Shown: positions 31,612 through 60,709 of the stretch, one piece after another
Layout: every line of letters starts with the position of its first letter
How positions within the stretch are numbered: position 1 is the first letter of the stretch
Assembly (NCBI GenBank): GCA_035529595.1
Contig: DATKWK010000017.1
Span: forward strand, 29,384-93,383
Direction of reading: 5' to 3'
From: Candidatus Bathyarchaeia archaeon
GTDB taxonomy: Bacteria > Patescibacteriota > Microgenomatia > PFEM01 > JAFGMK01
DNA length: 64,000 bases
The notes under the pieces: model-generated
Told to the model about the DNA's origin: nothing
What the model saw: the letters and a program-made list of their open reading frames with translations, nothing else
Databases searched by the model: none
Translations under genes and position numbers: made by a program

Positions 31612-31638
31612 AATAAATTAATTATAGCAAACCTATAT

Positions 31639-40828: not shown

Positions 40829-40846
40829 ATCATGACATTATCGAAC

Positions 40847-41857: not shown

Positions 41858-41875
41858 TTAACTTCAAATTAAGTT

Positions 41876-42574: not shown

Positions 42575-42582
42575 TATTTAAA

Positions 42583-42966: not shown

Positions 42967-43522
42967 AGATACGAGCGAAGGCTTTCCTCGCCCGGGTCAA
43001 CCTTGATTCGATCGCTTTTTCCGTTTCTCCGAACTTTTGGGCAATTTCCCGAACAGAAAACCCCTGCATATACTTTAGTCGCAATATACGAGCATATCCT
43101 TCGGCCAAAAGCCGTAAAACTTTTAATACCTTTCTCTTTAATTCTTTCTCTTCCAGGTCTGCCTCCGGACCCAGAGCTTTACTGACAAAGATTTCCAAAG
43201 AAGGGAAAAGAGAAAAAACGACCGTCTTAATTTTCTTCTTCCGGTAAAAATCGGCGATCTCATGTTTGGCAATACCGCAAATCCACGTCAGCCAGGAAGA
43301 TCTACCGGAATAAAAAGGCAAGGCTTCAAAAGCAGAAATAAAGGTTTCCTGCAGAATCTCCTCAGCATCCTCCAAACTCTGAACCCGCGATAAAATATAG
43401 TTTAATATCCGCTTGTGATAACGACGATAAATCAATCCCTGTGCTTTCTTATTACCCCGAATTGCTTTTTCGATCATCCTCGACCGAATATTTAATATCT
43501 GAAACTTGAAGCTTTGACTCAT
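42941..43522 (-). CDS. ECF-type RNA polymerase sigma factor (sigma-70 family)
   Basis: Region 2-like ...ILNYILSRVQSLEDAEEILQETFISAF and region 4 HTH REIAQKFGETEKAIESRLTRARKAF. 193 aa. Confidence 0.7.
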   Translation of the reverse strand: MSQSFKFQILNIRSRMIEKAIRGNKKAQGLIYRRYHKRILNYILSRVQSLEDAEEILQETFISAFEALPFYSGRSSWLTWICGIAKHEIADFYRKKKIKTVVFSLFPSLEIFVSKALGPEADLEEKELKRKVLKVLRLLAEGYARILRLKYMQGFSVREIAQKFGETEKAIESRLTRARKAFARIYVNIDRGG

Positions 43523-44690: not shown

Positions 44691-45002
44691 ATGACAAATA
44701 TTGCCTTTGCTTTCGATATCGGAACCGCCTTCAACGCCCCGTTTAATTCAGTGGGCGAATTAATCTCGATCCTTTTACCGAATATTTATATTCTCGCCGG
44801 CGTCCTGCTTTTATTCCTCTTGATCGGGGGCGGATTTGGGGTTATATTGAGTGCAGGCAAAGGAGCCAAAGAAGGGGTTGGTCAAGGAAGCAAGGCGATT
44901 ACGACGGCCATAATCGGTTTCTTAATCATAATCGGCTCTTACTGGATTATCCAAATTATCAGCGTCGTAACCGGTCTGAATATCCTTGATCCCGGTCTAT
45001 AA
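44691..45002 (+). CDS. VirB2/TrbC-like pilin paralog 1
   Basis: 103 aa with two hydrophobic helices separated by a short polar loop: ILAGVLLLFLLIGGGFGVILSAGKGAKEGVGQGSKAITTAIIGFLIIIGSYWIIQII. Confidence 0.65.
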   Translation: MTNIAFAFDIGTAFNAPFNSVGELISILLPNIYILAGVLLLFLLIGGGFGVILSAGKGAKEGVGQGSKAITTAIIGFLIIIGSYWIIQIISVVTGLNILDPGL

Positions 45003-45015
45003 AGCTTATAAAAAA

Positions 45016-45378
45016 ATGGTCAAACACCTGTTAGCCAACGACTCAATCGGCACCGTCACTAATCCTTGGGAAACCCTAAACCCGGCATATACTGGCACCA
45101 GCGGCGAAGGATTGGTCACCTTATTAAACAACATCCTGAAATTAGCTGTTGTTGTCGCCGGCATCTTTTCATTCATTAATCTGATCGTCGCCGGCTACGG
45201 TTTTATGTCGGCCGCCGGTAACCCGGAAAAAATTACTGAAGCCTGGAGCAGAATTTGGCAATCACTGGTTGGTTTACTGATTGTCGCCAGTTCGTTTGTC
45301 CTGGCCGCCCTTTTTGGCTATCTGGTCTTTGGCGATCCGACAGCGATTATTTCACCTAAAATTTACGGACCGTCCTAA
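45016..45378 (+). CDS. VirB2/TrbC-like pilin paralog 2
   Basis: The ORF-track frame (44986..45378) trimmed to the internal ATG at 45016 (MVKHLL...). It contains LKLAVVVAGIFSFINLIVAGYGFMSAAGNPEKITEAWSRIWQSLVGLLIVASSFVLAALFGYLVF. Confidence 0.55.
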   Translation: MVKHLLANDSIGTVTNPWETLNPAYTGTSGEGLVTLLNNILKLAVVVAGIFSFINLIVAGYGFMSAAGNPEKITEAWSRIWQSLVGLLIVASSFVLAALFGYLVFGDPTAIISPKIYGPS

Positions 45379-45379
45379 A

Positions 45380-45745
45380 ATGAACCAAAAATTACTGGCT
45401 ACTTCATTGGGCAGTTTTCAAGGCTTCGGTAAAATCGGTACCGATTTTCTGGCTGACCCGGTTGCTTCTTTAGAGAAAATAATCTCTTTAGTAATCGGTA
45501 TAATGACTATCGGAGCCGGTATCTATTTCATATTTCTGTTAATTATCGCCGCTTACGGATGGATGAGCGCCGGCGGCGATAAACAAAAAATGCAAAAAGC
45601 CCAGGACAGCTTTACTCAGGCTATCATTGGCTTAGTAGTGGTTGTTGCCGCTTATGCTATCGCCTCGGTTGTCGGTTTCATGCTGGGCGTTAACATCTTA
45701 AATCCGTCAGAACTGTTAGGAAATATATGGTCAACCTCAACTTAG
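45380..45745 (+). CDS. VirB2/TrbC-like pilin paralog 3
   Basis: The frame (45281..45745) trimmed to the ATG at 45380 (MNQKLLATSLGSF...). It contains IMTIGAGIYFIFLLIIAAYGWMSAGGDKQKMQKAQDSFTQAIIGLVVVVAAYAIASVV. Confidence 0.6.
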   Translation: MNQKLLATSLGSFQGFGKIGTDFLADPVASLEKIISLVIGIMTIGAGIYFIFLLIIAAYGWMSAGGDKQKMQKAQDSFTQAIIGLVVVVAAYAIASVVGFMLGVNILNPSELLGNIWSTST

Positions 45746-46098
45746 AAAAAATGTTCAAGCCGGCTTACGCGCAAATTACCAACCCGGCTATCGGTGAGGC
45801 CGGAAGCGGTGAAGGAGCTCAGATTTTAAGCCGCCTTATCTCAATAATTCTGAGTGCTCTGCTAATTATGGGTGTAATCTTCTTTATGACCAATTTCATC
45901 CTTGGGGCATACCGGTGGATAAGCGGAGGCCATGACAAAAGCTATATCCAGGAAGCAAGAGACAGGGTTTCCCATGCGATTATCGGCCTGGTGATCCTTT
46001 TCTCCGTTTTTGCTATAATCAGATTGATCGGGGATATCTTTGGTCTTAATTTGATGAAACTTTCAATTCCGACAATTTCTGATGTAGGAGGAATTTGA
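45727..46098 (+). CDS. VirB2/TrbC-like pilin paralog 4
   Basis: It contains LISIILSALLIMGVIFFMTNFILGAYRWISGGHDKSYIQEARDRVSHAIIGLVILFSVFAII. The start may instead be the ATG at 45751. Confidence 0.6.
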   Translation: MVNLNLEKMFKPAYAQITNPAIGEAGSGEGAQILSRLISIILSALLIMGVIFFMTNFILGAYRWISGGHDKSYIQEARDRVSHAIIGLVILFSVFAIIRLIGDIFGLNLMKLSIPTISDVGGI

Positions 46099-46175
46099 AA
46101 TTACCGGTTAGAAGTTATTAAACTATTCCTTAGAACTATATCCTTAATAAGGAAATACTGAAAGGGGGTGAGAAG

Positions 46176-46598
46176 ATGAAAAAAATAGTCAAAACTACAG
46201 TCGCCTTAGGTTTAAGCGTTTTGCCTTTGATAACCTCAGTATCTATGGCTATGGCACAAGACCCTCTTACAGGACCGTTTAATCTTGCCCCTGGTGAAGG
46301 ATGGGAAAATCTATCCAAAATCAGTGTTGCCAGCATGGTAAAAGGACTGCTTTCTTTAGCGATGGTCCTGGCAGCCCTTGTCGCTTTTGGTTTCTTGCTC
46401 TATGGAGGTATTCTTTGGATTACTTCAGGCGGAGACAAAAGCAAGACGGAAACTGCCCGCAATACAATCACCGCTGCCTTAGTCGGATTGGTAATCGTAT
46501 TCGGCAGCTTTGCAATCATCCAATTAGTCCAGATAGCCTTTGGGGTCAGCATTCTTAAGCTTAATTTCGAATCGTTTAAGTTCTATTCAGGTAGTTAA
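46176..46598 (+). CDS. VirB2/TrbC-like pilin paralog 5 (with signal peptide)
   Basis: A strong RBS (AAAGGGGGTGAG) lies upstream. The signal peptide MKKIVKTTVALGLSVLPLITSVSMAMA is followed by LLSLAMVLAALVAFGFLLYGGILWITSGGDKSKTETARNTITAALVGLVIVFGSFAII. Confidence 0.65.
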   Translation: MKKIVKTTVALGLSVLPLITSVSMAMAQDPLTGPFNLAPGEGWENLSKISVASMVKGLLSLAMVLAALVAFGFLLYGGILWITSGGDKSKTETARNTITAALVGLVIVFGSFAIIQLVQIAFGVSILKLNFESFKFYSGS

Positions 46599-46725
46599 CG
46601 TGGAAATATTCAAGTTCCAGACAGCTAAAGCATGGGTACCAAAGCCACAAAGCTACCTTTCATCTCGCAATTAAGAGATGAAGGGTGGCTTTTGGCCATA
46701 GGGAATTAATAAATAGTCTAGAAAA

Positions 46726-47109
46726 ATGAAACAATACAAAGGACTGATTCTAAAACTAATTGTGACTGGTTGGTGTTTGCTGACTTTCTTCCCTTTTTCT
46801 GCAGCTTTAGCTCAGGATTGGTCGACTCCGCCTGACCAGCCGGCAGATTTGAAGGATATTGAGGTCGTCTTTGCCAGAATTATCGGGGTTGCCATTCCTT
46901 TAGCCGGATTCGCCGGCCTGATTATGTTGATTATCGGCGGCTTCCAATATCTTACCGCCGGCGAAGACCCAAAGGCAGTCGAACAAGCATCCAAGTCCCT
47001 TACTTCGGTCTTTACCGGGTTAGTGCTCTTAATCAGCGCCTGGATAATTCTTAAAGCAATCCAAACAATTACCGGGATAAATGTAACCATTTTTAAGATT
47101 TCGCCCTAG
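46726..47109 (+). CDS. VirB2/TrbC-like pilin paralog 6 (with signal peptide)
   Basis: The signal peptide MKQYKGLILKLIVTGWCLLTFFPFSAALA is followed by ARIIGVAIPLAGFAGLIMLIIGGFQYLTAGEDPKAVEQASKSLTSVFTGLVLLISAWIIL. Confidence 0.65.
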   Translation: MKQYKGLILKLIVTGWCLLTFFPFSAALAQDWSTPPDQPADLKDIEVVFARIIGVAIPLAGFAGLIMLIIGGFQYLTAGEDPKAVEQASKSLTSVFTGLVLLISAWIILKAIQTITGINVTIFKISP

Positions 47110-47156
47110 CTTAGATCATGTTGAAATAAAACGTCCTATAAGGTAAAATAACGTAT

Positions 47157-50100
47157 ATGGCTAATAAAAAAGTAAAATTATCGAAAAAACTAGGGGGGCT
47201 AGTCGTACTTTGGTTCTTGGCTGGTTTATTGGCAACCAAACCCTGCTTCGCCCAAAATGGCTCGGGAGCCTTATTCGGCTTTAATATTCACCATTTGGCA
47301 AAAATGGAAGAACAGGATATTAGCTCAATCTTACAGAAGCTCTCGACCGATTGTTCCACCAAAATAGTACGGATTTGGGGATACGAGACAGGAATTGACG
47401 CTTATGTCAGCCTGGAAAAAGTACTTCGGAATGCTCCGGAAGATGTTAAATTTATAGTTGCCTTAGAAGACTTTGCCCCAATTATTGAAGATCCGGTAAA
47501 CTGGTATCAGGAGGCTGCCCGGCCCGGATCAAATTACTATCGGCATGTCCAGCGGATGCTGGAACGCTACGGCAAGAATCCTCAGATTCTGGTTTGGGAA
47601 CTGGCTAACGAACCTTCCTGCGGTGGTTATTATGATGCTTGCTTGCCTAATTTTTTAAATTGGGTGGAGAAGATTTCCAATCTGATTGACGGTTATACGG
47701 ACGCCTATATTTCCCCCGGTCTGATCGGAATTCCCCAGTTCTCCGAGTACGATTATGAGCGGATTTCCAACACCGGCAGCATTAATGCTAATTCCTGCCA
47801 TTTTTATAGCAGTTATTCAGATAATGTCGTTAGTTGCCAATGGGCTTTTGATCACAAAGGCCGGGTTGAGTTTATCTATGCCGGTGAGGCCGGCTACGAA
47901 GGCGAGTTCGACTGTTCCGGCGGCGGCTGTACTACTAAACACTGTGAGAACTGCTGTGAACGGCCTATCCTTGAAAAACGAGCCAAAAAAGCGCTTGCCG
48001 ACTATGAAACATTGTCAAAAATGGGTTTTGATGCTTTCTTAATCTGGCAATTTTCACCCTTAGGCAGAGCTTGCGACAACTTTTCGGTCTTTCCGGGCGA
48101 CCCCCTCTGTCCGGGAATTCTAAATATCGCCCCGGACGAATTGACTCTGCCCCCGAATCGAAAAACCGAATGGGCCGATTCGGTTCCGGGAAGGAATATC
48201 CCCTGCCGGCCGCTGGTCGTCTCCCAACAGCAATGGGCTAGTGATACCACCAAAGGCGCCAACTATTTTAACCCATATTTTTTTAATACTGATCCGCTGG
48301 CTGCGGATTCCCTGAGCGGTTTTCCTTTTGATTATTCGCCCTGGCGGCCGTTTCCCGGCGATGCCGGCCGGGCTTTTTACGACACCAAGGGCAATATTAT
48401 CAACCAACCGCACAACGAAGACGACCAGGATGTCTGTTACGATTTGGAAAAGCTGGAAAAAGAAAAGCAGATCACCAGCTACTGCAATCCTTCCCCGCAA
48501 ATCACCGATTACATTCAATGGTTCCCTGACGAATCGGCTTTGGAAAAAACCGTAAGAGTCCTGGGCTATTACCGGCCTTTTTGGACCGACTCGCCGGCTC
48601 CGGAATATAAAACCACCCAGATTCCCTTCTTGGGCAACAGCTTAACCGCCTCACGGGAATACACCGACAACGCCCAAAGGATGTCTCTTTTTGTAAACGA
48701 TTTTCTGCGGGGAACGGTTTACTGGGACCAAACTGAAGTCGAAGAAAGAGACCCGCGGATTGCCCCGGAAAGCGGGCCGATCAGAAAACTGTTGCCTAAA
48801 AACCGGCAGATAAATAATGAGTATATTGATGCTTATATCGGCTGCCGTCTCTTTAAAGACCCTGATCAGTGTGGTTATCCGCTGCTGCATGAAGATGCCA
48901 TCCACGACTATGCTGTTCTGTGGACGACCGGAGACGCCGGTATTATCAAGACCGGCAATTTTACCGATCTGCCTGACCATCGAGAAATAAAAAAGTCTTC
49001 TGCCGTCCCCAATCCATGGCGGTTAAGCGCCTGGTTTTGCGGGTTGCCTGGTATCGCCCGACCACTTAAATATACTAATCTTTGTCCGGAAGACGATTAC
49101 AGCGGCGAAGGCATCTACTGGATCAGAAGTCAGGAAGGTTATCCCTATTTTCCGCTGACCTCCCGAGAAGACGTCCCGGCAGTGGTTGATGTCGGTTTTG
49201 ACGGCGTCTGGGATCCAAACGACCCAAGATTAAGTGAAATACCGCCCGGGAAACCTTTCCCCGTCGGCTATCAGATGAAAATGGAAGATTATTACGCTGT
49301 CATTGAAGACGGCTACTGGGAAGATTCCAATGGCGACGGAATTATGGAATATAATAAATGGGGTGGGATTTACCATATCGACAAGGGCGCCAATTCACCC
49401 GACAGCGATCCACCTCTGCCAATGTACGAATTCCACTTTGTCGATCTGGTTTTTATTCCCCATATAGCTGAAGCCCGCGAACTGGGAGAATGGGCTGGTT
49501 TAACGTTAACCCCCTATACAATGATGAAAAAAGATTTGCCTGATTTTTGGGAAAAAGACCGGAGCGTTCATCAACTTAATCTGGTCACCAGCCGTACCTG
49601 CGAGATCAATGATATTGCCCGCGGCGGACCGGGTGATGCCCTGGCAGTCGACTGGCGGCATAGTTTCCGCTATGTTGATTATCCTACCGACCCCTGGAAC
49701 ATCGGCAATGAAGGTGAAAGACAACTTAGGATACTGCGCGAAGAAAAAGCGATACCAGACCCCCTTCATGACTGGTGGTGTAAAGCCGATCCCAGCGAAT
49801 GGCCGGATCGGGAAACCACGCCGATTGAATCCAATAAAGGCTGGGTAGTGACCAAAATTCCTTATCTGGAACAAGTCGCCAAAAGACTCATCGGCCAAGC
49901 CGGGGTTTTTAAAACCTTAATGCCTTATAGTTTCAACGAGGAAGTCGAAGACTTGATTACAGAAGTTGGCAGAGGCAGCGTCTATCCTTGGGAACTGCCC
50001 GGTTACGGACCGGCCCAACACAGTTACAACAACGGCTTAGCCCCGGAAGGGGTTAAGGAACATTGGGGCTGCTGTAATTATCCAGGTGACAAGTGTGATG

Positions 50101-50387
50101 GTATGGATTATCCCCAGGCAGATTGTCCCGATTACTGCAAATGGAATTCTGAAGCTGGACTTTGTATAGTACCGGGAACTAAAGTAGATTGTATCGCCCC
50201 CTGCAACTGCGATTATTGCAGTAAAGATAACTGCGGACCGGTATCCAAGGACGGATCGGATATCCGCGGTTGGGGAACTGCCAATAATGAAGATGCCCGT
50301 TTCTATTATCCTTATATCGGAACGATTGATATTTTCCGGCAATACTTTATGAATGCCGTTCTCCCCTCTGAGCTATCGACTTTATAA
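47157..50387 (+). CDS. Large secreted protein: N-terminal GH5-family glycoside-hydrolase-like domain plus long extension with a Cys-rich C-terminus
   Basis: Signal peptide MANKK...LLATKPCFA. The GH5 acid/base motif QILVWELANEP is present, with the candidate nucleophile FIYAGEAGYEGE. The C-terminal ~100 aa are Cys-dense (GCCNYPGDKCDG...CNCDYCSKDNCGP). 1076 aa. Confidence 0.65.
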   Translation: MANKKVKLSKKLGGLVVLWFLAGLLATKPCFAQNGSGALFGFNIHHLAKMEEQDISSILQKLSTDCSTKIVRIWGYETGIDAYVSLEKVLRNAPEDVKFIVALEDFAPIIEDPVNWYQEAARPGSNYYRHVQRMLERYGKNPQILVWELANEPSCGGYYDACLPNFLNWVEKISNLIDGYTDAYISPGLIGIPQFSEYDYERISNTGSINANSCHFYSSYSDNVVSCQWAFDHKGRVEFIYAGEAGYEGEFDCSGGGCTTKHCENCCERPILEKRAKKALADYETLSKMGFDAFLIWQFSPLGRACDNFSVFPGDPLCPGILNIAPDELTLPPNRKTEWADSVPGRNIPCRPLVVSQQQWASDTTKGANYFNPYFFNTDPLAADSLSGFPFDYSPWRPFPGDAGRAFYDTKGNIINQPHNEDDQDVCYDLEKLEKEKQITSYCNPSPQITDYIQWFPDESALEKTVRVLGYYRPFWTDSPAPEYKTTQIPFLGNSLTASREYTDNAQRMSLFVNDFLRGTVYWDQTEVEERDPRIAPESGPIRKLLPKNRQINNEYIDAYIGCRLFKDPDQCGYPLLHEDAIHDYAVLWTTGDAGIIKTGNFTDLPDHREIKKSSAVPNPWRLSAWFCGLPGIARPLKYTNLCPEDDYSGEGIYWIRSQEGYPYFPLTSREDVPAVVDVGFDGVWDPNDPRLSEIPPGKPFPVGYQMKMEDYYAVIEDGYWEDSNGDGIMEYNKWGGIYHIDKGANSPDSDPPLPMYEFHFVDLVFIPHIAEARELGEWAGLTLTPYTMMKKDLPDFWEKDRSVHQLNLVTSRTCEINDIARGGPGDALAVDWRHSFRYVDYPTDPWNIGNEGERQLRILREEKAIPDPLHDWWCKADPSEWPDRETTPIESNKGWVVTKIPYLEQVAKRLIGQAGVFKTLMPYSFNEEVEDLITEVGRGSVYPWELPGYGPAQHSYNNGLAPEGVKEHWGCCNYPGDKCDGMDYPQADCPDYCKWNSEAGLCIVPGTKVDCIAPCNCDYCSKDNCGPVSKDGSDIRGWGTANNEDARFYYPYIGTIDIFRQYFMNAVLPSELSTL

Positions 50388-50439
50388 AGTAAAAATCGCC
50401 TCTTGCATTGTCAAAAAAAACCTGTTACTCTAAAAATCA

Positions 50440-52179
50440 ATGAACCTGAAAAGAATCGTTAAAAGCAAAAAAATACTAATCTTTTTACTGGCCTCTTTTT
50501 TGCTAGTCCCCCTTTTCACTAACCTGATTCTGGCTTATGACTCGACACCGGATGAAGATGATGTCCCCTATATTAAGCAGGTCTGGTTACCGGCGGTTAA
50601 ATCTTCGGAAATGAACTTGGAAAGCTTCGTCTACGAAACAATTAAAGCAATTCCCCCGTCTCTTATCAGTATGATTTTAACCAATAAGAGGTGGGCTGAC
50701 AGCTGGATAATCAAAGGAGATGTTACTCCCTATAAAATTCCCAAACCCTCCGAAGCTGGTATCTTGCAGTCTCTTTTGGGCTTTATCACCTATCTCTATG
50801 CCCAACCGCCGGCTTCAGGATTAAACTACATTGCTTACGTCCGCCAGAATCTCGGATTAGCCCCGGCCTATGCTCAAGGCAGTTACGGCTACCAAAGCTT
50901 GTCTCCGGTCATTCCGATGTGGACGGCCTTTCGTAATATAACGTACGCCTTATTTGCCATTTTGCTGGTCGTCGCCGGATTTCTGGTGATGTTCCGAATC
51001 AAGACCGATCCCCGGACGGTAATTACTGTTCAAGCCGCCATTCCTAAAGTAATTATGGCCTTGCTTTTGGTTACTTTTTCCTATGCCATTGCCGGTTTTG
51101 TGATGGACTTAACCTACGTAATTCTATTTGCCGCTCTTGGACTCTTCCGGGGAGCCGGCTTAATCGGCGGTGAAGTCTTGGGGGTAGATGTCATTAAGAA
51201 GGCGCTTACCGAGTGGAACGCGGCCTGGTTTGGTTTCATGGTCCTGATTTTTAGTACCGGTGGGCTTTTTAACGGCATTAACAATATTGTTTCCGGTTTC
51301 CTGACACCGCCGGTCATCCCCAGCATTCCATTAATCAGTGACACCTTAAGATATGTTGTCGGAATTGCTCCTTCAGCCTTGGTTTTGCTGATTATTCTGG
51401 TTGTGATTATCTTTGTCCTTTTTAAGATTTCTTTTCTACTTATTAAAAGCTACATCAGTATCATTCTGGCAGTCCTGATCGCTCCTTTCCAAATTATGCT
51501 AAGTTCTCTGCCGGGAGTAAACGGGTTTGGTTCTTGGCTAAAAAACCTGGTGGCGCATGCGGCAGTTTTCCCGATCGTCGGCATTATGTTCCTGGTGGCG
51601 GCGATTCTCATGGGACCGACAATCGGGATTCAGATTGGTCCGGTGGGCATTTCGTTTGACCCTTTTGACCGGACTAAAAGCGGTTTTAGTACCCCAGTTG
51701 CTCCGCCACCGCTTTTGGGCGACAATCTTTCCAAGCCCGGCTCGATCGAAACTTTAATCGGCCTGGGAATTATCTTTTATATCCCCAGCATCTGCAGCCG
51801 ATTACAGGAAGCGCTCCGACGCCCGCTTGGTCTTGAATCGGCGATTTCGATGGTCGGTTTTCAGAAGTCGTTTGTCGGCGGTGCTCTTTACGGATCAGCC
51901 CAGAAAAAAGCTGGGGATGCTGCTACTACGTTTCTAGGCAGTGTTCCAGGTAGGATCGCTGGTAAGGTCAAAGAAGAAAAAGGTAAGAAAGCTGTTTCTC
52001 CTACAGACCAAAGCCTTGCGCCGTCAACCCAGCAAACAGCTCATCACCCAGGTTGGCAACTACCGAGCCATAGACCGGCATCCGGCGGTGGCGCCCAGTT
52101 AGCTAAAGGTCAACAGGTTAGTCCGGCACCAACCGCGGGCCAGGCTGCAACCCCGAAGAAAACTCCAAGAGTAAGATAG
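50440..52179 (+). CDS. VirB6/TrbL-like polytopic membrane protein with a Pro/Ala/Gln-rich C-terminal tail
   Basis: 579 aa with an N-terminal signal/TM and five or more internal TM helices (ITYALFAILLVVAGFLV, IMALLLVTFSYAIAGFV, LVLLIILVVIIFVLF ...). This matches TrbL/VirB6 topology. The tail is low-complexity. Confidence 0.55.
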   Translation: MNLKRIVKSKKILIFLLASFLLVPLFTNLILAYDSTPDEDDVPYIKQVWLPAVKSSEMNLESFVYETIKAIPPSLISMILTNKRWADSWIIKGDVTPYKIPKPSEAGILQSLLGFITYLYAQPPASGLNYIAYVRQNLGLAPAYAQGSYGYQSLSPVIPMWTAFRNITYALFAILLVVAGFLVMFRIKTDPRTVITVQAAIPKVIMALLLVTFSYAIAGFVMDLTYVILFAALGLFRGAGLIGGEVLGVDVIKKALTEWNAAWFGFMVLIFSTGGLFNGINNIVSGFLTPPVIPSIPLISDTLRYVVGIAPSALVLLIILVVIIFVLFKISFLLIKSYISIILAVLIAPFQIMLSSLPGVNGFGSWLKNLVAHAAVFPIVGIMFLVAAILMGPTIGIQIGPVGISFDPFDRTKSGFSTPVAPPPLLGDNLSKPGSIETLIGLGIIFYIPSICSRLQEALRRPLGLESAISMVGFQKSFVGGALYGSAQKKAGDAATTFLGSVPGRIAGKVKEEKGKKAVSPTDQSLAPSTQQTAHHPGWQLPSHRPASGGGAQLAKGQQVSPAPTAGQAATPKKTPRVR

Positions 52180-52353: not shown

Positions 52354-55300
52354 TTACCATCTTGGCGGTTTTTCCGGGCCAAATATTTCCCTAAATAATT
52401 GATGTCCGATACTGAAACCTAACTCCTTAGCAAACTGACTTAACCGGAAAGCATGGCCTGGCGTAATTAAACCGTCTGCTAACAGTGCGGGCACTAACGG
52501 TGCTCGTTCCCGAGTTAAGCCAAAGGTTGTCCTCAACTCCATCGTTTCAACTATCTCTGAAGCTGGCACTAACGCTTTTGAAAACGGCTGAGCCATGGCA
52601 TCCTTCCGCCACGGTGAAACCTGAACTAGGACATTCGCCGTCAGGATAGCTACATGATCCTGATAGGCTTGAATGTTCGCTTCATTGGATAATCCCCGCG
52701 TCCAAGCGCAAACGTCCATCAAATTTCGCAGAGCGCCGACCGCGCCATCAACTACTGCTACCGGATCAGTTAATTTCCTCGGATCAATTTGGCCGGTAGC
52801 CATTTCCATAAAAGTCATTGCCTGTATCCATAAGAAGTTCATATATAAACCATTATAAAATGTCTCCGATAACTGTCCAAACGGTATTGTCTTCCAACTG
52901 CCCCCGACAGTGAAATGTTCCAGAGGGATATCCGGCATCCCTTCTAGGCCGATTTTATCAATCGACTGCTGATGCTCCCAAGCCTCCTCTTCCGAACCAG
53001 TTAAGGCTAATCCCCGTTCTTTTTTACTCCTTGCTTGAGCTACTAAAGCTCTTAAGTCCCCATCCTCGTTCCATCTTTGCCTAATGTCATCTATTCTGCT
53101 TTTGATTTCAAGAATCATAGCCTCATCTGGAGCTAGTGGTTGTCCGCTGACCTTTTTAGCAGTAATATCCCGAAGAGCCGTATCTAATTTTGAGCCCTGA
53201 ATAGGACAAGTTGTCAGCACGTCAGCCACAATCTCGCCGATCAAGGGGTCTTTAGGATCGACGGTTAAAGGATAGCGGCGATCTACAAGTTCACCAGTGA
53301 CTCCAATTTCCAATAAACGTAAAAGCTTTTCTTGAGTAAGTCCTTTAGGTGTTCTTGACCGTTGTAGGGCTTTTTCTCTGGCCGCTTTTCCTGCCCGCTG
53401 ATAAAGCCTTTTAAACTGAGCAATATCGGCAAGTTCTTTCAAGGCCGGCTCACCTTGTTTTTGATAGCTTTTTAACAAAGCCGAAGCTCCTCGCCCTCTG
53501 ATATTCCAATTTGCCAGTAACGGCCTGACCGCATCCGCTCCTGCACGATGGTATATCGCTCTGAGTCTGCTTTCGGATTCCTTAATGCCAACTTTTTCAG
53601 CAACTACTGTAACTCTAGCCCGGTTATACGCTTTTATTAAATCACGTGCCTGACTCTCATGTACTCCCCCCGGTTTTTTTCCGCCCGCCATCAATCTGGC
53701 AACTCCAATTTCTCCCCCCAGCCTATATGCTTCGATCGCTTTTTCTGTATTTAAATGCCAATTTCTTAGTCTAATTAAATTCGCCACAGCCTGCTGGCCT
53801 GCCTGATCGCACTTCTCTGTCAATTCAGCCGGAAGAAAGAAAATACAAGCAGGATTTTTCACCTTAGCATCAACCTTAGCATTACTGACGAAGCGATATG
53901 TGGCTGAAATAAATATCTTATCGAGATAGGCACCAATATGCCAGGATCTATGGACATCTTCAACCGCGAACCGAAAAAGAGCCACCCTGGCTTTTCTGGC
54001 CATCTCAACCGCAAAAGGACTTCTGACGACTTGACCGATGCCTTCGACGAACCTATTCATTAACGAGGCCGACGTGTAGGCATCATCCAAAGACGGCATA
54101 TCATGCGGTAAACGATCTAGCATTTTGTCAACTAAGTTGCGTCTATTTGCCCGTTCTTCATCGCTTATACCCGGCTCATCCGGTTGTACGGCTCCCTCTA
54201 AGGCGACCCGGTATGCCTGGTTAGCCGCGCCGAGCCCTTCCTGGGCAAAAGAAGACCAACTGATAGATCTCATTGCCGGTGAAGCCAAAACATCCCAAAT
54301 GTGGTAGGCGCCCTCAAAAGGCTGGCTATACTCCGGGTTTGCGTAAACTTCGCCATCTTCGTCCGTTTTTGCAATTTCTGCTATAAACAGCTCATCCCAA
54401 AAGGCCATCATGGTTAAATGTTCCGGTTCGATTGTCGTACATCGAATTCTTGGAACAGATTCACCATAACCAAGTAATAAACCAACCTTTTCTCCGGCAG
54501 TACCGCTGCCCAAAGCGATTCTCATCTCCAAATAACGGTCGGTAAAGGCGATTACCGCTCGAGATAGCATTCTTACTCTTTCTTTAAAGGATCGCTCAAT
54601 TCCCATAATCGATTTCCATTCACCAACTTCGTCAGGAATCATAGCCATCCATTCTTGGATGTCCTGGACTAATGTATTATTTACCTCAAAATAACTAGGC
54701 TGTTCGGTTCTAATTAAAGTATCCAGACGGCGATAAAACCCATCCAACCAGTAATTAGGACCTTTTTCTTTCGTTTCTGTCGATTTAGCCGCTTCATTTT
54801 CTTTCTTTATCTGATCTTTTAAAATGCCGCATAAAGCTTCCATCACCCGGTGCTGACGGGTGTGTTCAAGGATATCTTTATCCAATCTTTCAATCTCATG
54901 TCTGTTACCCGCTGCTTGTACCTTGGCATAGCTAATAAATCGCCTCATTTGATCCCGCCAAGCCCGTTCCCGATCCATCAGATCCTCGATCTTGTCAAGA
55001 GTAAGATCTCCGTCACGACGCAACTCAACCGTCTCGATCACTAAATCAATCGGCGGCACTAACATTCCTGTTCCTGGAACTCTCTCTCTTGGTCCAAAAC
55101 CCTCATTCAAATCAGTCAGAGTCAAGACCTCAACATCGGCTTCAGGAATAAAAACCTGCCAGACCAAACAATTCAGGTTTTTTTCTAAAGCGGCGACTGC
55201 CTCTATAGTCCTCTCAGGGAATCTTTTAACCCGCTCTTTAAGACTCCTGATATCGCGAAGCCAGGCTGCCAATGAGGCCGCACTGACCCGATCAACTCCT

Positions 55301-55722: not shown

Positions 55723-55775
55723 AAATTCGTTGAATTAATAAGCAGCCTTATTTTACCATATCATGTCTGCTGAAG

Positions 55776-56700: not shown

Positions 56701-57723
56701 ATGGAACAACACCCGATCCCGCAACAGATTTCAAGTTATCAATTCCGCCTGATCGGCGATATGACCCTCAAACAGTTTTCTCAACTGGCCGGCGGGGTAG
56801 TTATCGCCATACTCATTTATTCTCTGCCGATCCTTTCAGTCATTAAATGGTTTCTGGTTATTTTTTTTGTATTTTTAGGCTTTGCCTTAGCCTTTCTGCC
56901 TCTTGAAGACCGGCCTTTGGATAAATGGATCACTGCTTTTATCAGATCTATCTACTCCCCGACTCAATATATTTGGCAAAAAACAAAGAAAATACCCGAC
57001 TTCCTCCAGGAAATAACTACCAAATCAAAAAAAGCGGCAGAAAATATTCCCCAGATCGAAACAACCAGGCCTAATCTCGAGGAATATTTTGAAACTTTTT
57101 CGCCTCGCCGGCCGGAATCAAAGATTGAAAAAGAAGAACAATTAGCCTTGGAGAAAATGAATTCTCTTTTCCAGGCTACCAAATTACCAACGGATTTTAT
57201 TCCGGAAACCAGACAGATTGAACCTGAAGAACAAACGATGCCGCAAATTAAAGTCAGGCCGCATAAATTAAGAATTCCCCCTTCCGAGGCGGTTGTCCTA
57301 AAAATCGGTATCATTCCTAACCCCGTAAGAAAACCTAAGAAAAGCAGTGTTTCAACGATCACTCCTACGCCTAAGATCAGGATGCCTCCTTTCAAAAGAC
57401 AATCAACCAAGACAGCGGTCGAGGCCGTAACCTCAACTGACTTACCGATTCCTGATACTCCAAGACAACCAAACGTTATCGTTGGCATGATTCTGGATCA
57501 CAACGGGAAAATAGTGGAAAGAGCGATTGCCGAAATCAGGGATAAAGACGGCATCCCGGTTAGAGCTCTCAGGAGCAACCGTCTGGGCCAGTTTCAAATC
57601 GTGAACCCCTTGCCTGACGGCGCCTATGAAATCGAGATTGAAAAGGAAGGTTTTGAATTTGATATAATTAAATTAAATCTGACCGGGGAGGTTGTCGCCC
57701 CGATTGAAATTCGAGCCAAATGA
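56701..57723 (+). CDS. T4SS-associated membrane protein (VirB3-like 2-TM N-terminus, Pro-rich linker, C-terminal beta-sandwich-like domain)
   Basis: GVVIAILIYSLPILSVIKWFLVIFFVFLGFALAFL is a TM hairpin. The C-terminal ...VIVGMILDHNGKIVERAIAEIRDKDGIPV...DGAYEIEIEKEGFEF resembles a carboxypeptidase-regulatory-like fold. The stop overlaps the next gene's start. Confidence 0.45.
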   Translation: MEQHPIPQQISSYQFRLIGDMTLKQFSQLAGGVVIAILIYSLPILSVIKWFLVIFFVFLGFALAFLPLEDRPLDKWITAFIRSIYSPTQYIWQKTKKIPDFLQEITTKSKKAAENIPQIETTRPNLEEYFETFSPRRPESKIEKEEQLALEKMNSLFQATKLPTDFIPETRQIEPEEQTMPQIKVRPHKLRIPPSEAVVLKIGIIPNPVRKPKKSSVSTITPTPKIRMPPFKRQSTKTAVEAVTSTDLPIPDTPRQPNVIVGMILDHNGKIVERAIAEIRDKDGIPVRALRSNRLGQFQIVNPLPDGAYEIEIEKEGFEFDIIKLNLTGEVVAPIEIRAK

Positions 57724-58736
57724 ACTCAACCCAAACTATCATAACACCGATCAAATCAAGTACGCAGAAATTTTTGGAGATCGAAGATATTAAGGATGGA
57801 ATCATCATGCTAATGGGTGGCAGTTGTCTTTTAGTGCTTACGACCACGGCAGTTAATTTTGGTCTTCTTTCGGAACAAGAGCAGGATACGGCTATTTATG
57901 CTTACGGTTCTTTGCTTAATTCGTTGACATTTTCGATTCAAATTCTGATTCGTTCAAAAAGAAAGGATATTTCTTCCTACCTTAAATTACTTGAAGCGCA
58001 AGAAAAAAAAATTACAGGGGCTCTATTAAAAGAGCAAATCCAAAGGTACCGAAAATTTATTCAAGAAACGGTTCAGGTAAACAATGTTTTAGAGAAAAAA
58101 TTCTATATCATCATTCCGATGTCTTTTCTGGAATTGGGTGTCAGCAAAACCGTCGGCTCCAAAATTAAAAAGACAGGCAATCTCCCCTATCCCAAGGAAT
58201 ATATTATTGAAAAGGCAAAAACTAACCTTTATCCAAAACGGGATCACCTTTTCCGCTTGTTTAATCGTTTAGGTTTAAGATCAAGACAATTGAATACACA
58301 AGAATTAGTTAGGCTTTTTTTTGAAATCTACAACCCCGGCCAACAGGGACAAATATTAAGTATGCCTGCTGATTACCAAACTCCGATAGTTAAACCGGCA
58401 ACAGATTTTATGGAAACAAATTTACCGGAAGAAATCGAAATAGAAACACCTACAGAACCGGCAACGGATCTTCCTTCTCAACCGGAAGAGGCGGGCGCTA
58501 CGGAGGAGGCAGCCAATCAGATGCAAGCGAATCCGTCCCCAGTAAACTCTCAAAATAATGAGACAATAACCGGAAATGAAGAAACCTCGCCTCAAGACGA
58601 AATCGATCAATTAGTCAAGAAAGAAACTCCAGCCAGCAACCCCCAGCAAACCAATAATGAAGGTCAACCTTCCTCTCAAAACTTTAAGAACAAATTTAAG
58701 GCGATATTTGAATCAAAGCAAAAAAATCAATTATGA
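57720..58736 (+). CDS. T4SS-associated protein with a VirB4-N-terminal-like segment (no ATPase motifs)
   Basis: N-terminal FLEIEDIKDGIIMLMGG...VNFGLLSEQEQDTAIYAYGSLLNSLTFSIQILIRS resembles the N-terminal (CagE/TrbE-type) region of Gram-positive-type VirB4 proteins. There are no Walker motifs. The stop overlaps the virB4 start (ATGA at 58733). Confidence 0.45.
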   Translation: MNSTQTIITPIKSSTQKFLEIEDIKDGIIMLMGGSCLLVLTTTAVNFGLLSEQEQDTAIYAYGSLLNSLTFSIQILIRSKRKDISSYLKLLEAQEKKITGALLKEQIQRYRKFIQETVQVNNVLEKKFYIIIPMSFLELGVSKTVGSKIKKTGNLPYPKEYIIEKAKTNLYPKRDHLFRLFNRLGLRSRQLNTQELVRLFFEIYNPGQQGQILSMPADYQTPIVKPATDFMETNLPEEIEIETPTEPATDLPSQPEEAGATEEAANQMQANPSPVNSQNNETITGNEETSPQDEIDQLVKKETPASNPQQTNNEGQPSSQNFKNKFKAIFESKQKNQL

Positions 58737-60709
58737 AACTACCGCTATCTTTACCATTACCGTTTCTTAAACGTAAAGACAAGGAACAAGCCAAGCAAAC
58801 AGAAGGGCAACCGGAGAAAAAACCAAGCGAACTGCTGGCTGAAGGAATGGTTTCGATTCAGGATATCATTGCGCCTTCGGCAATCGAGGTTGATTTTGAC
58901 CAGCTTAAAATTGGCAACACTTATTTCAGAACTCTTTTTATTTCCGGCTATCCCCGCTACGTTTCCGCTAATTGGCTGGCTCCCCTGATCAACTTTGATC
59001 ACTCGCTCGATGTGTCAATGTTCATCTATCCGATCGAAGGACGTTCTATTCTTGATGACTTAAGAAGAAAAATTGCCGAGATGGAGGCAGAAATCCAGAC
59101 TGATCTTGAGCGCGGCCGGGTCGTTGATCCAAGCACTCAAGCTAAATTGGAAGATGCCCGGTCACTTCAAGAAGAATTAGTGAAAGGAATCGAGCGTTTT
59201 TTTCAATTCAGTCTTTACGTTACCATCCCCGCCCCGTCAATCGAAGAGCTAAATCATATCTCCAAACAGATCGAGTCAACCTTAGGATCACTTTTAATTA
59301 TTCCGAAACATGCTACTTTGCAAATGGAGGAGGGCTTTAAAACCACCATCCCCATTTGCACCGATAAGTTAATGATTACCCGCAACATGGATACGACTTC
59401 TTTGGCGACAACTTTTCCTTTTACTTCGTCGGAATTAACCGCCAACGAAGGCATTCTTTTCGGCATCAATGAACATAACGATTCCTTAATTATCTTCGAC
59501 CGATTCACCTTGGAAAACGCTAACTCGGTTGTCTTTGCCAAATCCGGTGCCGGCAAATCGTATCTTGTTAAGTTAGAAGCCCTTCGGTCACTGATGTTCG
59601 GCACAGAAATTATTATTATTGATCCTGAAGCCGAATACCAAACTCTCAGCGAAGCAGTCGGTGGCCAATATATCGGTTTTGGTTTCGGCAGCTATGCGAA
59701 AATCAACCCTTTTGACCTTTCTACCGTTTATGCCGAAGAGGAAAACGAATTAAACCAGAAACTGCTTTCTCTTCATTCGCTTTTTAAAGTAATTATGGGG
59801 GTGTTAAACCCTTCGGAAGAAGCGACTTTAGACCGGGCTCTGGTCCTGGCTTATAAAATGAAAGGCATCACACCGGATCCGGCCACTCAGAAAAACGAAC
59901 CCCCCCTGATGGAAGATTTATATAAAGCCTTAACCGGTATGGAGGAACCGGAAGCCAGATCTTTGGCCGATCGGATCGAAAAATTTGTCAAAGGTTCCTT
60001 TCGCGGCATATTTGACCAACATTCAAATGTTGATATTCAAAATTCCTTTACTGTCTTTTCCTTAAGGGATCTTGAAGACACCCTGCGCCCGATAGCGATG
60101 TTTATCCTGCTTGATTATATTTGGACAAGAATCAGAAGAGAAATGAAAAGAAGGATCCTGATTGTCGACGAAGCCTGGTACATGATGAGGTATCCCGATT
60201 CAGCCAATTTTCTGCGCTCAATTGCCAAAAGAGCCCGTAAATATTATTTGGGTGTAACCACCATTACCCAGGATGTCGAAGATTTTTTCACTACCGAATA
60301 CGGCAAAGAGATTGTCTCCAACTCGTCAATGCAAATCCTGATGAAACAATCCTCGGTCGCCATTGACCGGCTAGCCGAGGTTTTTTATCTCTCCGAAGGG
60401 GAGAAAAATTTACTTCTGGCAGCTGATGTCGGCGAAGGCCTTTTCTTTGCCGGTACCAACCACGTTGCTATCCGGGTGGTCGCCTCACCTGAAGAACATA
60501 AATTAATCACTTCAAAACCTGAGGAATTAATGAGAATGGCAGAAGAAAAAAGACGCAAGATTGAAGCCGCCAAAAGAGCCGGTATCGGTCCAATCCCTGC
60601 TGAACAAGAAGTTACAGAACAAGAAATCAGTGACAGCACTGAAATCAGGCCGGAGGCAGAAAGAGTTTCACCGGCCGAAGTAGCCTCGATTACCGCCAGA
60701 CCAAAATAA
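58733..60709 (+). CDS. virB4: VirB4/TraC/TrsE-family type IV secretion ATPase
   Basis: The N-terminus IQDIIAPSAIEVDFDQLKIGNTYFRTLFISGYPRYVSANWLAPL is the CagE/TrbE/VirB4 pattern. Walker A is AKSGAGKSYLVK and Walker B is RILIVDEAWYM. 658 aa. Confidence 0.85.
   Translation: MKLPLSLPLPFLKRKDKEQAKQTEGQPEKKPSELLAEGMVSIQDIIAPSAIEVDFDQLKIGNTYFRTLFISGYPRYVSANWLAPLINFDHSLDVSMFIYPIEGRSILDDLRRKIAEMEAEIQTDLERGRVVDPSTQAKLEDARSLQEELVKGIERFFQFSLYVTIPAPSIEELNHISKQIESTLGSLLIIPKHATLQMEEGFKTTIPICTDKLMITRNMDTTSLATTFPFTSSELTANEGILFGINEHNDSLIIFDRFTLENANSVVFAKSGAGKSYLVKLEALRSLMFGTEIIIIDPEAEYQTLSEAVGGQYIGFGFGSYAKINPFDLSTVYAEEENELNQKLLSLHSLFKVIMGVLNPSEEATLDRALVLAYKMKGITPDPATQKNEPPLMEDLYKALTGMEEPEARSLADRIEKFVKGSFRGIFDQHSNVDIQNSFTVFSLRDLEDTLRPIAMFILLDYIWTRIRREMKRRILIVDEAWYMMRYPDSANFLRSIAKRARKYYLGVTTITQDVEDFFTTEYGKEIVSNSSMQILMKQSSVAIDRLAEVFYLSEGEKNLLLAADVGEGLFFAGTNHVAIRVVASPEEHKLITSKPEELMRMAEEKRRKIEAAKRAGIGPIPAEQEVTEQEISDSTEIRPEAERVSPAEVASITARPK

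What the first reader, a model, noticed from the sequence alone, without database searches (positions are those of the whole stretch)
47157..50387. 1076-aa secreted GH5-like glycosidase with a long extension and Cys-knot-like tail embedded in the T4SS/pilin locus
Directly after the pilin array and before the VirB6-like gene lies a signal-peptide protein. Its first ~280 aa carry the GH5 acid/base motif (LVWELANEP) and a candidate nucleophile (YAGEAGYEGE). About 700 aa of unknown function and a C-terminal ~100 aa with 18 Cys follow. In canonical T4SSs the wall-breaching enzyme is the VirB1 lytic transglycosylase. A GH5-type glycanase in that position might instead degrade the glycan layer of a host or partner cell. 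That would fit an epibiotic lifestyle.
Basis: partly seen in the sequence, partly recalled or inferred. Interest (0 to 1): 0.65.

Follow-up and report, generated by a model that had tools for sequence, protein, structure and literature searches.

The report
Secretion-locus glycanase with swappable enzyme head
An ultra-small (CPR/Patescibacteria) bacterium encodes, inside its type IV secretion gene cluster, a large secreted protein made of an apparently active sugar-chain-cutting enzyme joined to a rare 750-residue module of unknown fold; relatives keep the module and the gene position but swap the enzyme, which suggests a surface-glycan-cutting tool tied to the secretion machine.

Summary
The ORF (47157-50387, +, 1076 aa) is real and has a Sec signal peptide. 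Residues ~36-323 form a GH5/clan GH-A barrel. The catalytic set is invariant in 12 homologs (R72, N151-E152, H215, E244, W297). The nearest solved structures are GH5_7 beta-mannanases, at only 16-21% identity. The remaining ~750 aa is a conserved module with no Pfam or PDB match. It is rare: 23 hits among 1.84 billion representatives. In 11 loci from Microgenomates-group bacteria, one large gene sits between the VirB2-like pilin array and a VirB6-like gene. Six of these carry the module behind non-GH5_7 heads. Four of the six head classes test as GH-A-like. My best reading is a T4SS-associated secreted glycanase whose head is exchanged to match a variable surface glycan. Whether the target is host or self is untested. 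The same GH5 domain also occurs outside T4SS loci. The NCBI labels "beta-galactosidase" and "Bathyarchaeia" are not supported. I class this as a new variant of a known kind, with moderate interest.

The parts
47121..47149 (+). Promoter-like site TTGAAA-17-TAAAAT, ending 7 nt before the ATG. It would give a leaderless or near-leaderless mRNA.
   Evidence: This is the best-scoring consensus match in the region, 10 of 12; sequence read. It is a consensus match only, not evidence of function.
47157..50387 (+). Whole ORF, 1076 aa plus stop: a secreted two-part protein.
   Evidence: The identical protein is in public databases as P0001. Its source contig is JGI 3300031539 Ga0307380_10000013, 385 kb.
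47157..47255 (+). Sec-type signal peptide, aa 1-33 (probable cleavage around CFA|Q).
   Evidence: Lys-rich n-region and a single hydrophobic segment at aa 8-32. Homologs share the same layout, ending in A-Q. No dedicated signal-peptide predictor was available.
47262..48125 (+). GH5-like (clan GH-A) (beta/alpha)8 catalytic domain, aa 36-323.
   Evidence: The AlphaFold model has pLDDT 81 and pTM 0.81, with eight beta-alpha units. The top five Foldseek PDB hits are GH5_7 mannanases, E 3.6e-14 to 1e-11. The profile against PDB sequences gives 3ziz at 6.9e-22 and 1qno at 1.5e-20.
47607..47612 (+). N151-E152 of the NEP motif: predicted acid/base catalyst at the end of strand beta-4.
   Evidence: Invariant in 12 homologs. 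It aligns with N168-E169 of 1QNO. Strand beta-4 spans aa 144-148 in the model.
47886..47888 (+). E244 (in YAGEAG): predicted nucleophile at the end of strand beta-7.
   Evidence: Invariant in 12 homologs. It lies within model strand 239-245. The nucleophile role is inferred from the GH-A layout and is not shown by a sequence alignment to a solved enzyme.
47913..47957 (+). Conserved Cys-rich loop after beta-7 (C253, C258, C263, C266, C267; consensus CSGGGCTxxxCxNCC).
   Evidence: Alignment A1. C267 is invariant, C258 is in at least 90% of sequences, and the other three are present in most. This is the lower-confidence part of the model (pLDDT 68-80).
48123..50384 (+). Conserved ~750-aa 'extension' module of unknown fold, aa 323-1076. 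Motifs: LPPNRxTEWG, DYSPWRPFPGD, IPFLGNS, ESGPIRKL, HDY, TSREDVP, FIPHIAExRE, RGGPGD, KIPYL, ELPGYGP.
   Evidence: Alignments A2 and A3. An exhaustive profile search found only 23 hits in 1.84e9 representatives. There is no Pfam or PDB match. The model pLDDT is 45, so it is unusable.
50070..50234 (+). Variable Cys-rich insertion, aa 972-1026, with 11 Cys, between the conserved HWG and RGWG motifs.
   Evidence: Cys positions. Length and Cys content vary widely between homologs, and the insertion is nearly absent in P0004.
50295..50345 (+). Conserved C-terminal motif ARFYYPYIGTIDIFRQY.
   Evidence: Near-invariant in A3. A recognisable version also occurs in the more distant slot protein P0009 (FYYPYLG).
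44691..47109 (+). Context: array of six small two-TM ORFs. Five reach the Pfam T4SS_pilin (VirB2-like) cut-off.
   Evidence: PF18895, 26.9-39.9 bits against a cut-off of 26.6. Each ORF has an ortholog in the syntenic loci.
50440..52179 (+). Context: 579-aa polytopic membrane protein. It is VirB6-like by position and topology only.
   Evidence: Hydrophobic segments. No family hit. Orthologs sit directly after the slot protein in L001, L002, L003, L005 and L008. In L080, L081, L082, L084 and L085 a gene of similar size (527-557 aa) with no Pfam hit follows the slot protein; its homology was not tested.
56701..60709 (+). Context: PrgI/VirB3-like gene (56701-57723) and VirB4 split into two ORFs (57720-58736 and 58733-60709).
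   Evidence: PF12666 PrgI, PF19044, and NCBIfam conju_CD1110 at 399 bits.

Best explanation
The gene encodes a Sec-exported accessory protein of the monoderm-type T4SS of a Microgenomates-group (CPR/Patescibacteria) bacterium. It has two parts. (1) The head is a retaining clan GH-A glycosidase of the GH5 type. Its closest solved relatives are GH5_7 endo-beta-1,4-mannanases, and its catalytic residues are intact, so it most likely cleaves a beta-linked, non-peptidoglycan glycan. (2) The rest is a conserved ~750-aa module that is the constant part of the protein family occupying the slot between the VirB2-like pilin array and the VirB6-like gene. I infer that this module holds the protein at the T4SS, the pilus or the cell surface, and that the head is the working end. 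In my model the head locally removes a surface polysaccharide so that the pilus or channel can reach or pass an envelope. Closely related modules carry unrelated glycosidase heads, so the substrate is probably variable between lineages. That favours a partner or host surface glycan over the bacterium's own conserved wall. Shown: the ORF, the fold, conservation of the catalytic residues, conservation of the module, the synteny, and the head exchange. Inferred: secretion, enzymatic activity, substrate class, physical association with the T4SS, and the target (host versus self).
For: Fold and catalysis. The model has pLDDT 81. The top five Foldseek hits are GH5_7 mannanases. Profile E-values against PDB sequences are 7e-22 to 1e-11. 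R72, N151, E152, P153, H215, Y241, E244 and W297 are invariant in 12 sequences at 34-50% identity. Synteny. A large secreted protein occupies the same slot in the window, L001, L002, L003, L005, L008, L080, L081, L082, L084 and L085, flanked by pilins, a VirB6-like gene, PrgI and VirB4. Labelled sources include Woesebacteria, Shapirobacteria and Pacebacteria. Head exchange. The extension of the query is as similar to P0003 and P0004 (different heads, 44%) as to P0002 (same head, 42%). The heads fall into six classes. Class H3 hits Pfam Glyco_hydro_cc/GH5. A joint profile of H2 and H4 hits the GH5 endoglucanase 6wqp at E 3.8e-5, and its invariant Asn and Glu-x-Gly columns sit where the catalytic residues would be. 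Rarity. The extension has only 23 hits in 1.84e9 representatives. Of nine extension-bearing proteins whose context was looked up, the eight with the closer extension (at least 31% identity) are in the slot. Literature. [quoted passage not shown] The T4SS with its pilin array is essential for epibiotic growth in Southlakia (PMC10633639). No terminator-like site lies in the 47- and 52-bp gaps on either side of the ORF.
Against: No experiment or expression data exists. The extension has no interpretable structure (pLDDT 45), so its scaffold or anchor role is pure inference from conservation and position. The query's own Pfam GH5 score (14.1 bits) is below the cut-off of 23.5. Identity to characterised GH5_7 enzymes is only 16-21%, so the substrate cannot be read off. 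The GH5 domain also occurs outside T4SS loci (L009, P0014, L010). P0012, which has a divergent extension, is not followed by T4SS genes. CPR bacteria encode many glycoside hydrolases thought to serve nutrition (PMC11665869). No host of any Microgenomates bacterium came up in the papers read here, and I know of none.
Confidence: 0.55

Rival explanations
1. It is a self-directed VirB1 substitute. The GH5 head cuts the bacterium's own wall, or a secondary wall polymer or sheath, to open a path for T4SS and pilus assembly.
For: It sits in the T4SS cluster, and no SLT or VirB1 hit was found in the window. The Woesebacteria slot protein P0010 fuses this GH5 domain to an SLT_3 lysozyme-like domain (27.3 bits against a cut-off of 27). 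P0007 has a weak N-terminal SLT hit (E 0.1). PMC12102498 raises exactly this possibility.
Against: To my knowledge no GH5 enzyme is known to cleave peptidoglycan, and the nearest relatives are mannanases and glucanases. The relatives' clusters already encode an M23 peptidoglycan peptidase. Exchange of heads between closely related modules is hard to explain if the substrate is the organism's own conserved wall.
Confidence: 0.2
2. It is an ordinary nutritional exo-enzyme, a secreted mannanase or glucanase that feeds fermentation, and it merely lies next to the T4SS genes.
For: The nearest solved structures are GH5_7-type mannanases. CPR bacteria carry many GHs thought to serve carbohydrate fermentation (PMC11665869). 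Related GH5 domains occur outside T4SS loci, fused to a GDSL esterase (L009) or found in Chloroflexota.
Against: The slot is conserved in 11 loci across several candidate phyla, although the head itself changes. No carbohydrate-binding module, sugar transporter or catabolic gene was seen nearby. The 750-aa module has not been found in any recognisable polysaccharide-utilisation context.
Confidence: 0.12
3. It is a surface adhesin or pilus-tip protein whose GH5-like head binds glycan without cutting it (lectin-like), or it is a Sec-exported effector or toxin acting on the partner.
For: Its position between the pilin genes and the VirB6-like gene resembles that of virB5 in the Agrobacterium operon (my own knowledge). 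The Cys-rich insertion is variable. No adhesin was detected in Patescibacteria T4SS clusters (PMC12102498).
Against: All catalytic residues are invariant across 12 sequences at 34-50% identity, which argues for retained catalysis. There is no homology to VirB5, PrgB or any known adhesin.
Confidence: 0.1

Closest known systems
GH5 subfamily 7 endo-beta-1,4-mannanases (Podospora anserina Man5A 3ZIZ; Trichoderma reesei Man5A 1QNO; 3WFL; 3WH9)
   Same: Both have the (beta/alpha)8 clan GH-A fold. The WELxNEP acid/base motif aligns residue for residue (E152 with E169 of 1QNO). A Glu sits at the end of beta-7, an Arg on beta-2 and a Trp on beta-8. These are the best sequence-profile and structure matches.
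   Different: Identity is only 16-21% and TM-score 0.60-0.64. The sequence alignment covers beta-1 to beta-5 only. A conserved five-Cys loop follows beta-7. The His usually found on beta-3 is not conserved (VALED / ITLSN). The domain is fused to a 750-aa module and encoded in a T4SS cluster. Substrate is unknown, and no formal CAZy subfamily assignment was possible.
VirB1 / PrgK / TraG(pIP501): T4SS-associated peptidoglycan hydrolases
   Same: All are secreted envelope-glycan hydrolases encoded inside a T4SS cluster. In monoderm systems they are large and multidomain. One ortholog (P0010) carries an SLT_3 domain alongside the GH5 domain.
   Different: The query has no lysozyme, SLT or CHAP fold. 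Its catalytic domain is a GH-A TIM barrel, which to my knowledge is not known to act on peptidoglycan. It follows the pilin array instead of heading the operon. It is not a member of the VirB1 family.
Phage tailspike and tail-fibre depolymerases (comparison from general knowledge, not tested here)
   Same: A conserved attachment part is joined to an exchangeable glycan-degrading part, and the exchangeable part differs between close relatives.
   Different: There is no sequence or fold similarity and no beta-helix. This is a cellular secretion-system context, and attachment to a filament has not been shown.
VirB5-type minor pilin / pilus-tip adhesin (by gene position only)
   Same: The gene lies between the VirB2 pilin genes and the VirB6-like gene, and the product is exported by Sec.
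   Different: It is about five times larger, shows no homology, and carries an enzyme domain.

Membership tests
Glycoside hydrolase family 5 (clan GH-A) | (beta/alpha)8 TIM-barrel fold | tested here: met
   The model has pLDDT 81 and eight beta-alpha units. 255 PDB matches have E<=1e-3, and the listed best 50 are mostly GH5 and other TIM-barrel glycosidases.
Glycoside hydrolase family 5 (clan GH-A) | Asn-Glu (acid/base) at the C-terminal end of strand beta-4 | tested here: met
   N151-E152 is invariant in 12 homologs. It aligns with N168-E169 of 1QNO and follows model strand 144-148.
Glycoside hydrolase family 5 (clan GH-A) | Nucleophile Glu at the C-terminal end of strand beta-7 | tested here: met
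   E244 is invariant and lies in model strand 239-245.
Glycoside hydrolase family 5 (clan GH-A) | Other conserved GH5 residues (Arg beta-2, His beta-3, His/Tyr beta-6, Trp beta-8) | tested here: inconclusive
   R72, H215 and W297 are invariant, as is Y241, which lies on beta-7 rather than beta-6. The beta-3 His is not conserved (VALED / ITLSN).
Glycoside hydrolase family 5 (clan GH-A) | Pfam PF00150 score above the gathering cut-off | tested here: not met
   The query scores 14.1 bits against a cut-off of 23.5. Homologs of the same domain pass: P0007 33.4, P0012 31.1, P0014 38.4 and P0009 24.4 bits. The query is thus a divergent member, supported by profile and fold evidence and not by Pfam itself.
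Glycoside hydrolase family 5 (clan GH-A) | Glycosidase activity | not testable with these tools
   This needs recombinant enzyme.
GH5 subfamily 7 (beta-mannanase) | Assignment by CAZy/dbCAN subfamily model or phylogeny | not tested
   No CAZy HMMs were available. GH5_7 enzymes are the nearest solved relatives, but at 16-21% identity. The precomputed Pfam PF26410 (GH5_mannosidase) hits several homologs but not the query.
GH42 beta-galactosidase (the name given in NCBI) | Full GH42 catalytic domain plus trimerisation and C-terminal domains | tested here: not met
   PF02449 matches only aa 128-184, which is profile positions 113-172 of 376 (24.4 bits). This is the shared GH-A NEP region. Mannanases score far better.
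VirB1-type lytic transglycosylase / lysozyme-like T4SS hydrolase | SLT/lysozyme-like domain with a catalytic Glu | tested here: not met
   The query has no SLT, SLT_3, CHAP or lysozyme hit. Only the ortholog P0010 carries SLT_3.
VirB1-type lytic transglycosylase / lysozyme-like T4SS hydrolase | Encoded within a T4SS gene cluster | tested here: met
   Pilins, PrgI and VirB4 lie around it. The synteny holds in 10 further loci.
Cystine-knot domain | Conserved Cys framework retained across homologs | tested here: not met
   There are 11 Cys, not 18. The stretch varies from about 25 aa (2 Cys, P0004) to over 100 aa between homologs. Model confidence there is below 50.
Microgenomates T4SS 'slot protein' extension family (defined here; alignments A2/A3) | About 750-aa module with the motifs DYSPWRPFPGD, IPFLGNS, ESGPIRKL, TSREDVP, RGGPGD, ELPGYGP and FYYPYIG | tested here: met
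   The query is 38-51% identical to nine of the ten other members of A3 and 23% to the divergent P0012. Local hmmsearch gives E 3e-302.

The most novel reading that the evidence does not exclude
The slot protein is a partner-range determinant displayed on or beside the VirB2-like pilus. The 750-aa module would be a new fold that docks to the T4SS or pilus, and the exchangeable glycosidase head would be matched to the surface polysaccharide of the host the epibiont attaches to. That would work like a phage tailspike depolymerase, but on a bacterial type IV secretion machine. Head class would then predict host type for uncultured Microgenomates.
Probability: 0.2. Interest if true: 0.8.

Novelty: new variant of a known kind. 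Interest (0 to 1): 0.55.

Why it matters
The role of the T4SS in Patescibacteria is described as completely unknown, although it is essential for epibiotic growth in the one species tested (PMC11665869, PMC10633639). The 2025 survey of these systems found few VirB1 homologs near virB4, found no adhesin, and left open that 'other glycosidases' take part (PMC12102498). A conserved, secreted protein with an exchangeable glycosidase head in a fixed slot of the Microgenomates cluster is a concrete candidate for that missing component. It also gives testable handles: an enzyme assay, localisation, and correlation of head class with co-occurring hosts. In addition, it defines a rare 750-aa protein module with no known fold. 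If the enzyme proves to be a plain mannanase with no tie to the T4SS, the finding is ordinary.

Tried and rejected
2. The idea that the C-terminal 'tail' domains of relatives (ALAYWGEETHF / ALWMEETGAS, alignment A4) are lysozyme-like. No PDB or Pfam hit was found, so I dropped it. The query lacks this tail anyway.
3. Pairwise hhalign of the other head classes against the GH5 alignment gave low probabilities (1-33%). A joint H2+H4 profile against PDB did give a GH5 endoglucanase. Classes H5 and H6 remain unassigned.
4. The Cys-knot reading was rejected.
5. The NCBI names were rejected. 'Beta-galactosidase' rests on a 57-aa GH42 match. 'Bathyarchaeia archaeon' conflicts with the tmRNA, ECF sigma factor and bacterial T4SS in the window and with VirB4 being 64-76% identical to Microgenomates-group loci.
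6. A database search with the GH5-domain profile returned only three extra proteins. A metagenome contig scan with the extension profile found nothing. Neither enlarged the sample.
7. GC and GC3 across the head/extension junction show no sharp break.
8. The C-terminal region of the 904-aa downstream protein, searched against PDB, gave only chance-level hits.


Full report
OBSERVATION. The ORF at 47157..50387 (+) is real: 1076 aa with an ATG start. The identical protein is in public databases (P0001). NCBI names it 'beta-galactosidase [Candidatus Bathyarchaeia archaeon]', and it lies on a 385-kb contig of JGI metagenome 3300031539. The N-terminus has a Lys-rich start and a single hydrophobic segment at aa 8-32, ending in ...CFAQ. 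Homologs share this layout, so I read it as a Sec signal peptide. The Cys count is wrong. The protein has 33 Cys, only 11 of them after residue 971, all within aa 972-1026.

CONTEXT AND ORGANISM. The window is bacterial. It carries a tmRNA, an ECF sigma factor and a monoderm-type T4SS. Five ORFs at 44986-47109 pass the Pfam T4SS_pilin cut-off, and a sixth small two-TM ORF lies at 44691-45002. After the big ORF comes a 579-aa polytopic membrane protein with no family hit. Next, on the opposite strand, come a 1122-aa protein with no predicted TM segment and a DOT1-like methyltransferase. Then follow a PrgI/VirB3-like protein and a VirB4 split into two ORFs (NCBIfam conju_CD1110, 399 bits). VirB4 is 64-76% identical to that of loci labelled Woesebacteria and Shapirobacteria. 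Shapirobacteria belongs to the Microgenomates group of Patescibacteria. The 'Bathyarchaeia' label is therefore most likely a binning or labelling error. No SLT, lysozyme or VirB1-type domain was found in any of the 30 window ORFs scanned.

THE HEAD. Pfam gives only short, weak hits around the NEP motif: GH42 at 24.4 bits over 57 aa, and GH5 at 14.1 bits, below its cut-off. A 12-sequence alignment of the domain (A1) shows invariant R72, N151-E152-P153, H215, Y241, E244 and W297, at 34-50% identity to the query. The A1 profile matches GH5_7 endo-beta-1,4-mannanases in the PDB at E 6.9e-22 (3ziz), 1.5e-20 (1qno) and 1.6e-19 (3wfl). In that alignment E152 falls on E169 of 1QNO, which I know as the acid/base of that enzyme. 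The AlphaFold model (pLDDT 81, pTM 0.81) is an eight-fold beta/alpha barrel. NE follows strand 4, H215 ends strand 6, E244 ends strand 7 and W297 ends strand 8. Foldseek against the PDB returns five GH5_7 mannanases first (E 3.6e-14 to 1e-11, TM 0.60-0.64, 16-21% identity), then GH5 cellulases and other GH-A enzymes. The head is therefore a divergent GH5/clan GH-A domain with an intact catalytic set. A conserved five-Cys loop (aa 253-267) follows strand 7. Formal CAZy subfamily assignment could not be done.

THE REST OF THE PROTEIN. Residues ~323-1076 form one conserved module with about 47 invariant positions across 11 sequences. It has no Pfam family and no PDB sequence relative. An exhaustive HMM search of 1.84 billion cluster representatives found only 23 proteins at E<=1e-3, 13 of them at E<=1e-30. 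The structure prediction failed (pLDDT 45), and its fold search is meaningless. The 'Cys-rich tail' is a variable insertion between the conserved HWG and RGWG motifs. It is about 25 aa in P0004, 55 aa here, and over 100 aa in P0002, P0003, P0005 and P0017. After it comes the conserved C-terminal motif ARFYYPYIGTIDIFRQY.

MODULARITY. The module sits behind different N-terminal domains. By all-against-all BLAST the heads fall into six classes. H1 is the GH5_7-like head (query, P0002, P0012). H3 (P0004) hits Pfam Glyco_hydro_cc and GH5. H2 and H4 are related to each other (hhalign probability 88%). Their joint alignment keeps an invariant Asn, Tyr and Glu-x-Gly, and matches the GH5 endoglucanase 6wqp at E 3.8e-5 with those columns on the catalytic positions. 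H5 and H6 are unassigned. The query's module is as similar to modules behind other heads (P0003 and P0004, 44%) as to the one behind the same head (P0002, 42%). The heads have therefore been exchanged on a conserved chassis. Conversely, the same GH5 domain is found with other partners:
- an SLT_3 lysozyme-like domain in Woesebacteria P0010 (27.3 bits);
- a weak SLT hit in P0007;
- a Peptidase_M64 domain in P0014;
- a GDSL esterase in Gottesmanbacteria L009.

SYNTENY. In the window and ten further loci, one large secreted protein lies directly after the pilin array and before the VirB6-like gene. PrgI and VirB4 lie downstream, and a polyprenyl synthase and ECF sigma factor often lie upstream. 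The ten loci are L001, L002, L003, L005, L008, L080, L081, L082, L084 and L085. Five of the eleven carry the GH5_7-like head and six carry other heads. In five of the relatives the gene after VirB4 encodes a Peptidase_M23 protein. There are exceptions. The Gottesmanbacteria protein, P0014 and L010 carry the GH5 domain at 30-39% identity outside any visible T4SS context. P0012, which has a 25%-identical extension plus an extra tail, is followed by unrelated genes.

INTERPRETATION. Three things are established. The head is a probably active GH-A glycanase. The module is rare and conserved. The gene slot inside the Microgenomates T4SS cluster is fixed while the head is exchanged. From this I infer a T4SS-associated, Sec-exported glycanase in which the module provides association with the machine or the surface, and the head removes a surface polysaccharide. 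Exchange of heads among close relatives points to a substrate that differs between lineages. That fits a partner's surface glycan better than the producer's own wall, but this step is inference only.

Three rivals remain. It could be a self-directed VirB1 substitute; the SLT_3 fusion and PMC12102498 support this, while known GH5 substrate range and the M23 genes in relatives argue against it. It could be a nutritional exo-enzyme; GH5_7 similarity and out-of-context relatives support this, while the conserved slot argues against it. Or it could be a non-catalytic adhesin or effector, which the invariant catalytic residues argue against.

LITERATURE. PMC12102498 reports that VirB1 homologs are seldom linked to virB4 in Patescibacteria. 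It also reports that pilin arrays are abundant in Microgenomatia, that no adhesin was detected, and that other glycosidases might take the VirB1 role. GH5 is not mentioned there. PMC10633639 shows that the T4SS with its pilin array is essential in Southlakia. PMC11665869 calls the T4SS role completely unknown and notes that CPR glycoside hydrolases are generally thought to be nutritional. My three searches of the held paper library found no description of this slot protein or its module.

VERDICT. It is wrong on the Cys knot and unproven on the host-glycan idea. I class it as a new variant of a known kind: a secretion-system-associated envelope hydrolase with a different catalytic fold and a novel conserved module. 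Interest is 0.55.

Noticed in passing
whole window; protein P0001: NCBI labels the identical protein 'beta-galactosidase [Candidatus Bathyarchaeia archaeon]'. The contig, however, carries a tmRNA, an ECF sigma factor and a bacterial T4SS whose VirB4 is 64-76% identical to Microgenomates-group loci. This is probably a mis-binned or mislabelled MAG. Locus L010, labelled Aenigmatarchaeota, also carries a 31%-identical GH5 domain and may have the same problem.
   Followed up: partly
window 40037-44583 (- strand): Isoprenoid genes lie beside the pilin array: an AA_kinase-family protein (possibly isopentenyl phosphate kinase), a diphosphomevalonate decarboxylase-like protein and a polyprenyl synthetase, together with an ECF sigma factor. 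The polyprenyl synthase, sigma factor and pilin array are linked in the same way in L001, L080, L082 and L084, and without the sigma factor in L003.
   Followed up: partly
window 60760-63474 (+): The 904-aa protein after VirB4 has a cluster of TM segments (aa ~370-577) and a C-terminal region with an HECGH (HExxH-type) motif. In relatives the gene at this position carries Peptidase_M23 instead. No family or PDB match was found for the window's version.
   Followed up: partly
window 57720-60709 (+): VirB4 is split into two overlapping ORFs: 338 aa (N-terminal part) and 658 aa (ATPase). The same split (TraC-like plus P-loop_TraG) is seen in all relatives examined. In L085 the ATPase ORF also carries an intein (Intein_splicing, LAGLIDADG_3).
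   Followed up: no
window 52354-56297 (- strand): A 1122-aa protein with no predicted TM segment and no family hit, and a DOT1-like methyltransferase with an N-terminal TM segment, sit on the opposite strand in the middle of the T4SS cluster. A large minus-strand gene occupies this position in all relatives with enough downstream sequence, and the DOT1-like gene in three of them (L005, L080, L084).
   Followed up: no
window 109-16577: A low-GC (35-39%) defence and mobile island: GmrSD-like nuclease, a PHP/SMC-type ATPase, a type I restriction-modification system (HsdS, HsdM, HsdR) and a large serine recombinase, ending beside tRNA-Asn (16502-16577).
   Followed up: no
window 27188-32774 (- strand): Six tRNA genes (four Ser, two Arg) and the tmRNA lie within about 5.6 kb.
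   Followed up: no
window 47121-47157 and 50408-50440: Promoter-like hexamers end 7 nt and 2 nt before the ATGs of the big ORF and of the VirB6-like gene, and I saw no Shine-Dalgarno sequence by eye. These may be leaderless transcripts, or the matches may be chance.
   Followed up: no
relatives P0005, P0019, P0021, P0012, P0025-P0029, P0031, P0032 (C-terminal ~170-280 aa): Many extension-bearing relatives end in an extra conserved domain (motifs ALW(I/M)EETGAS or ALAYWGEETHF) that has no Pfam or PDB match. The query lacks it.
   Followed up: yes
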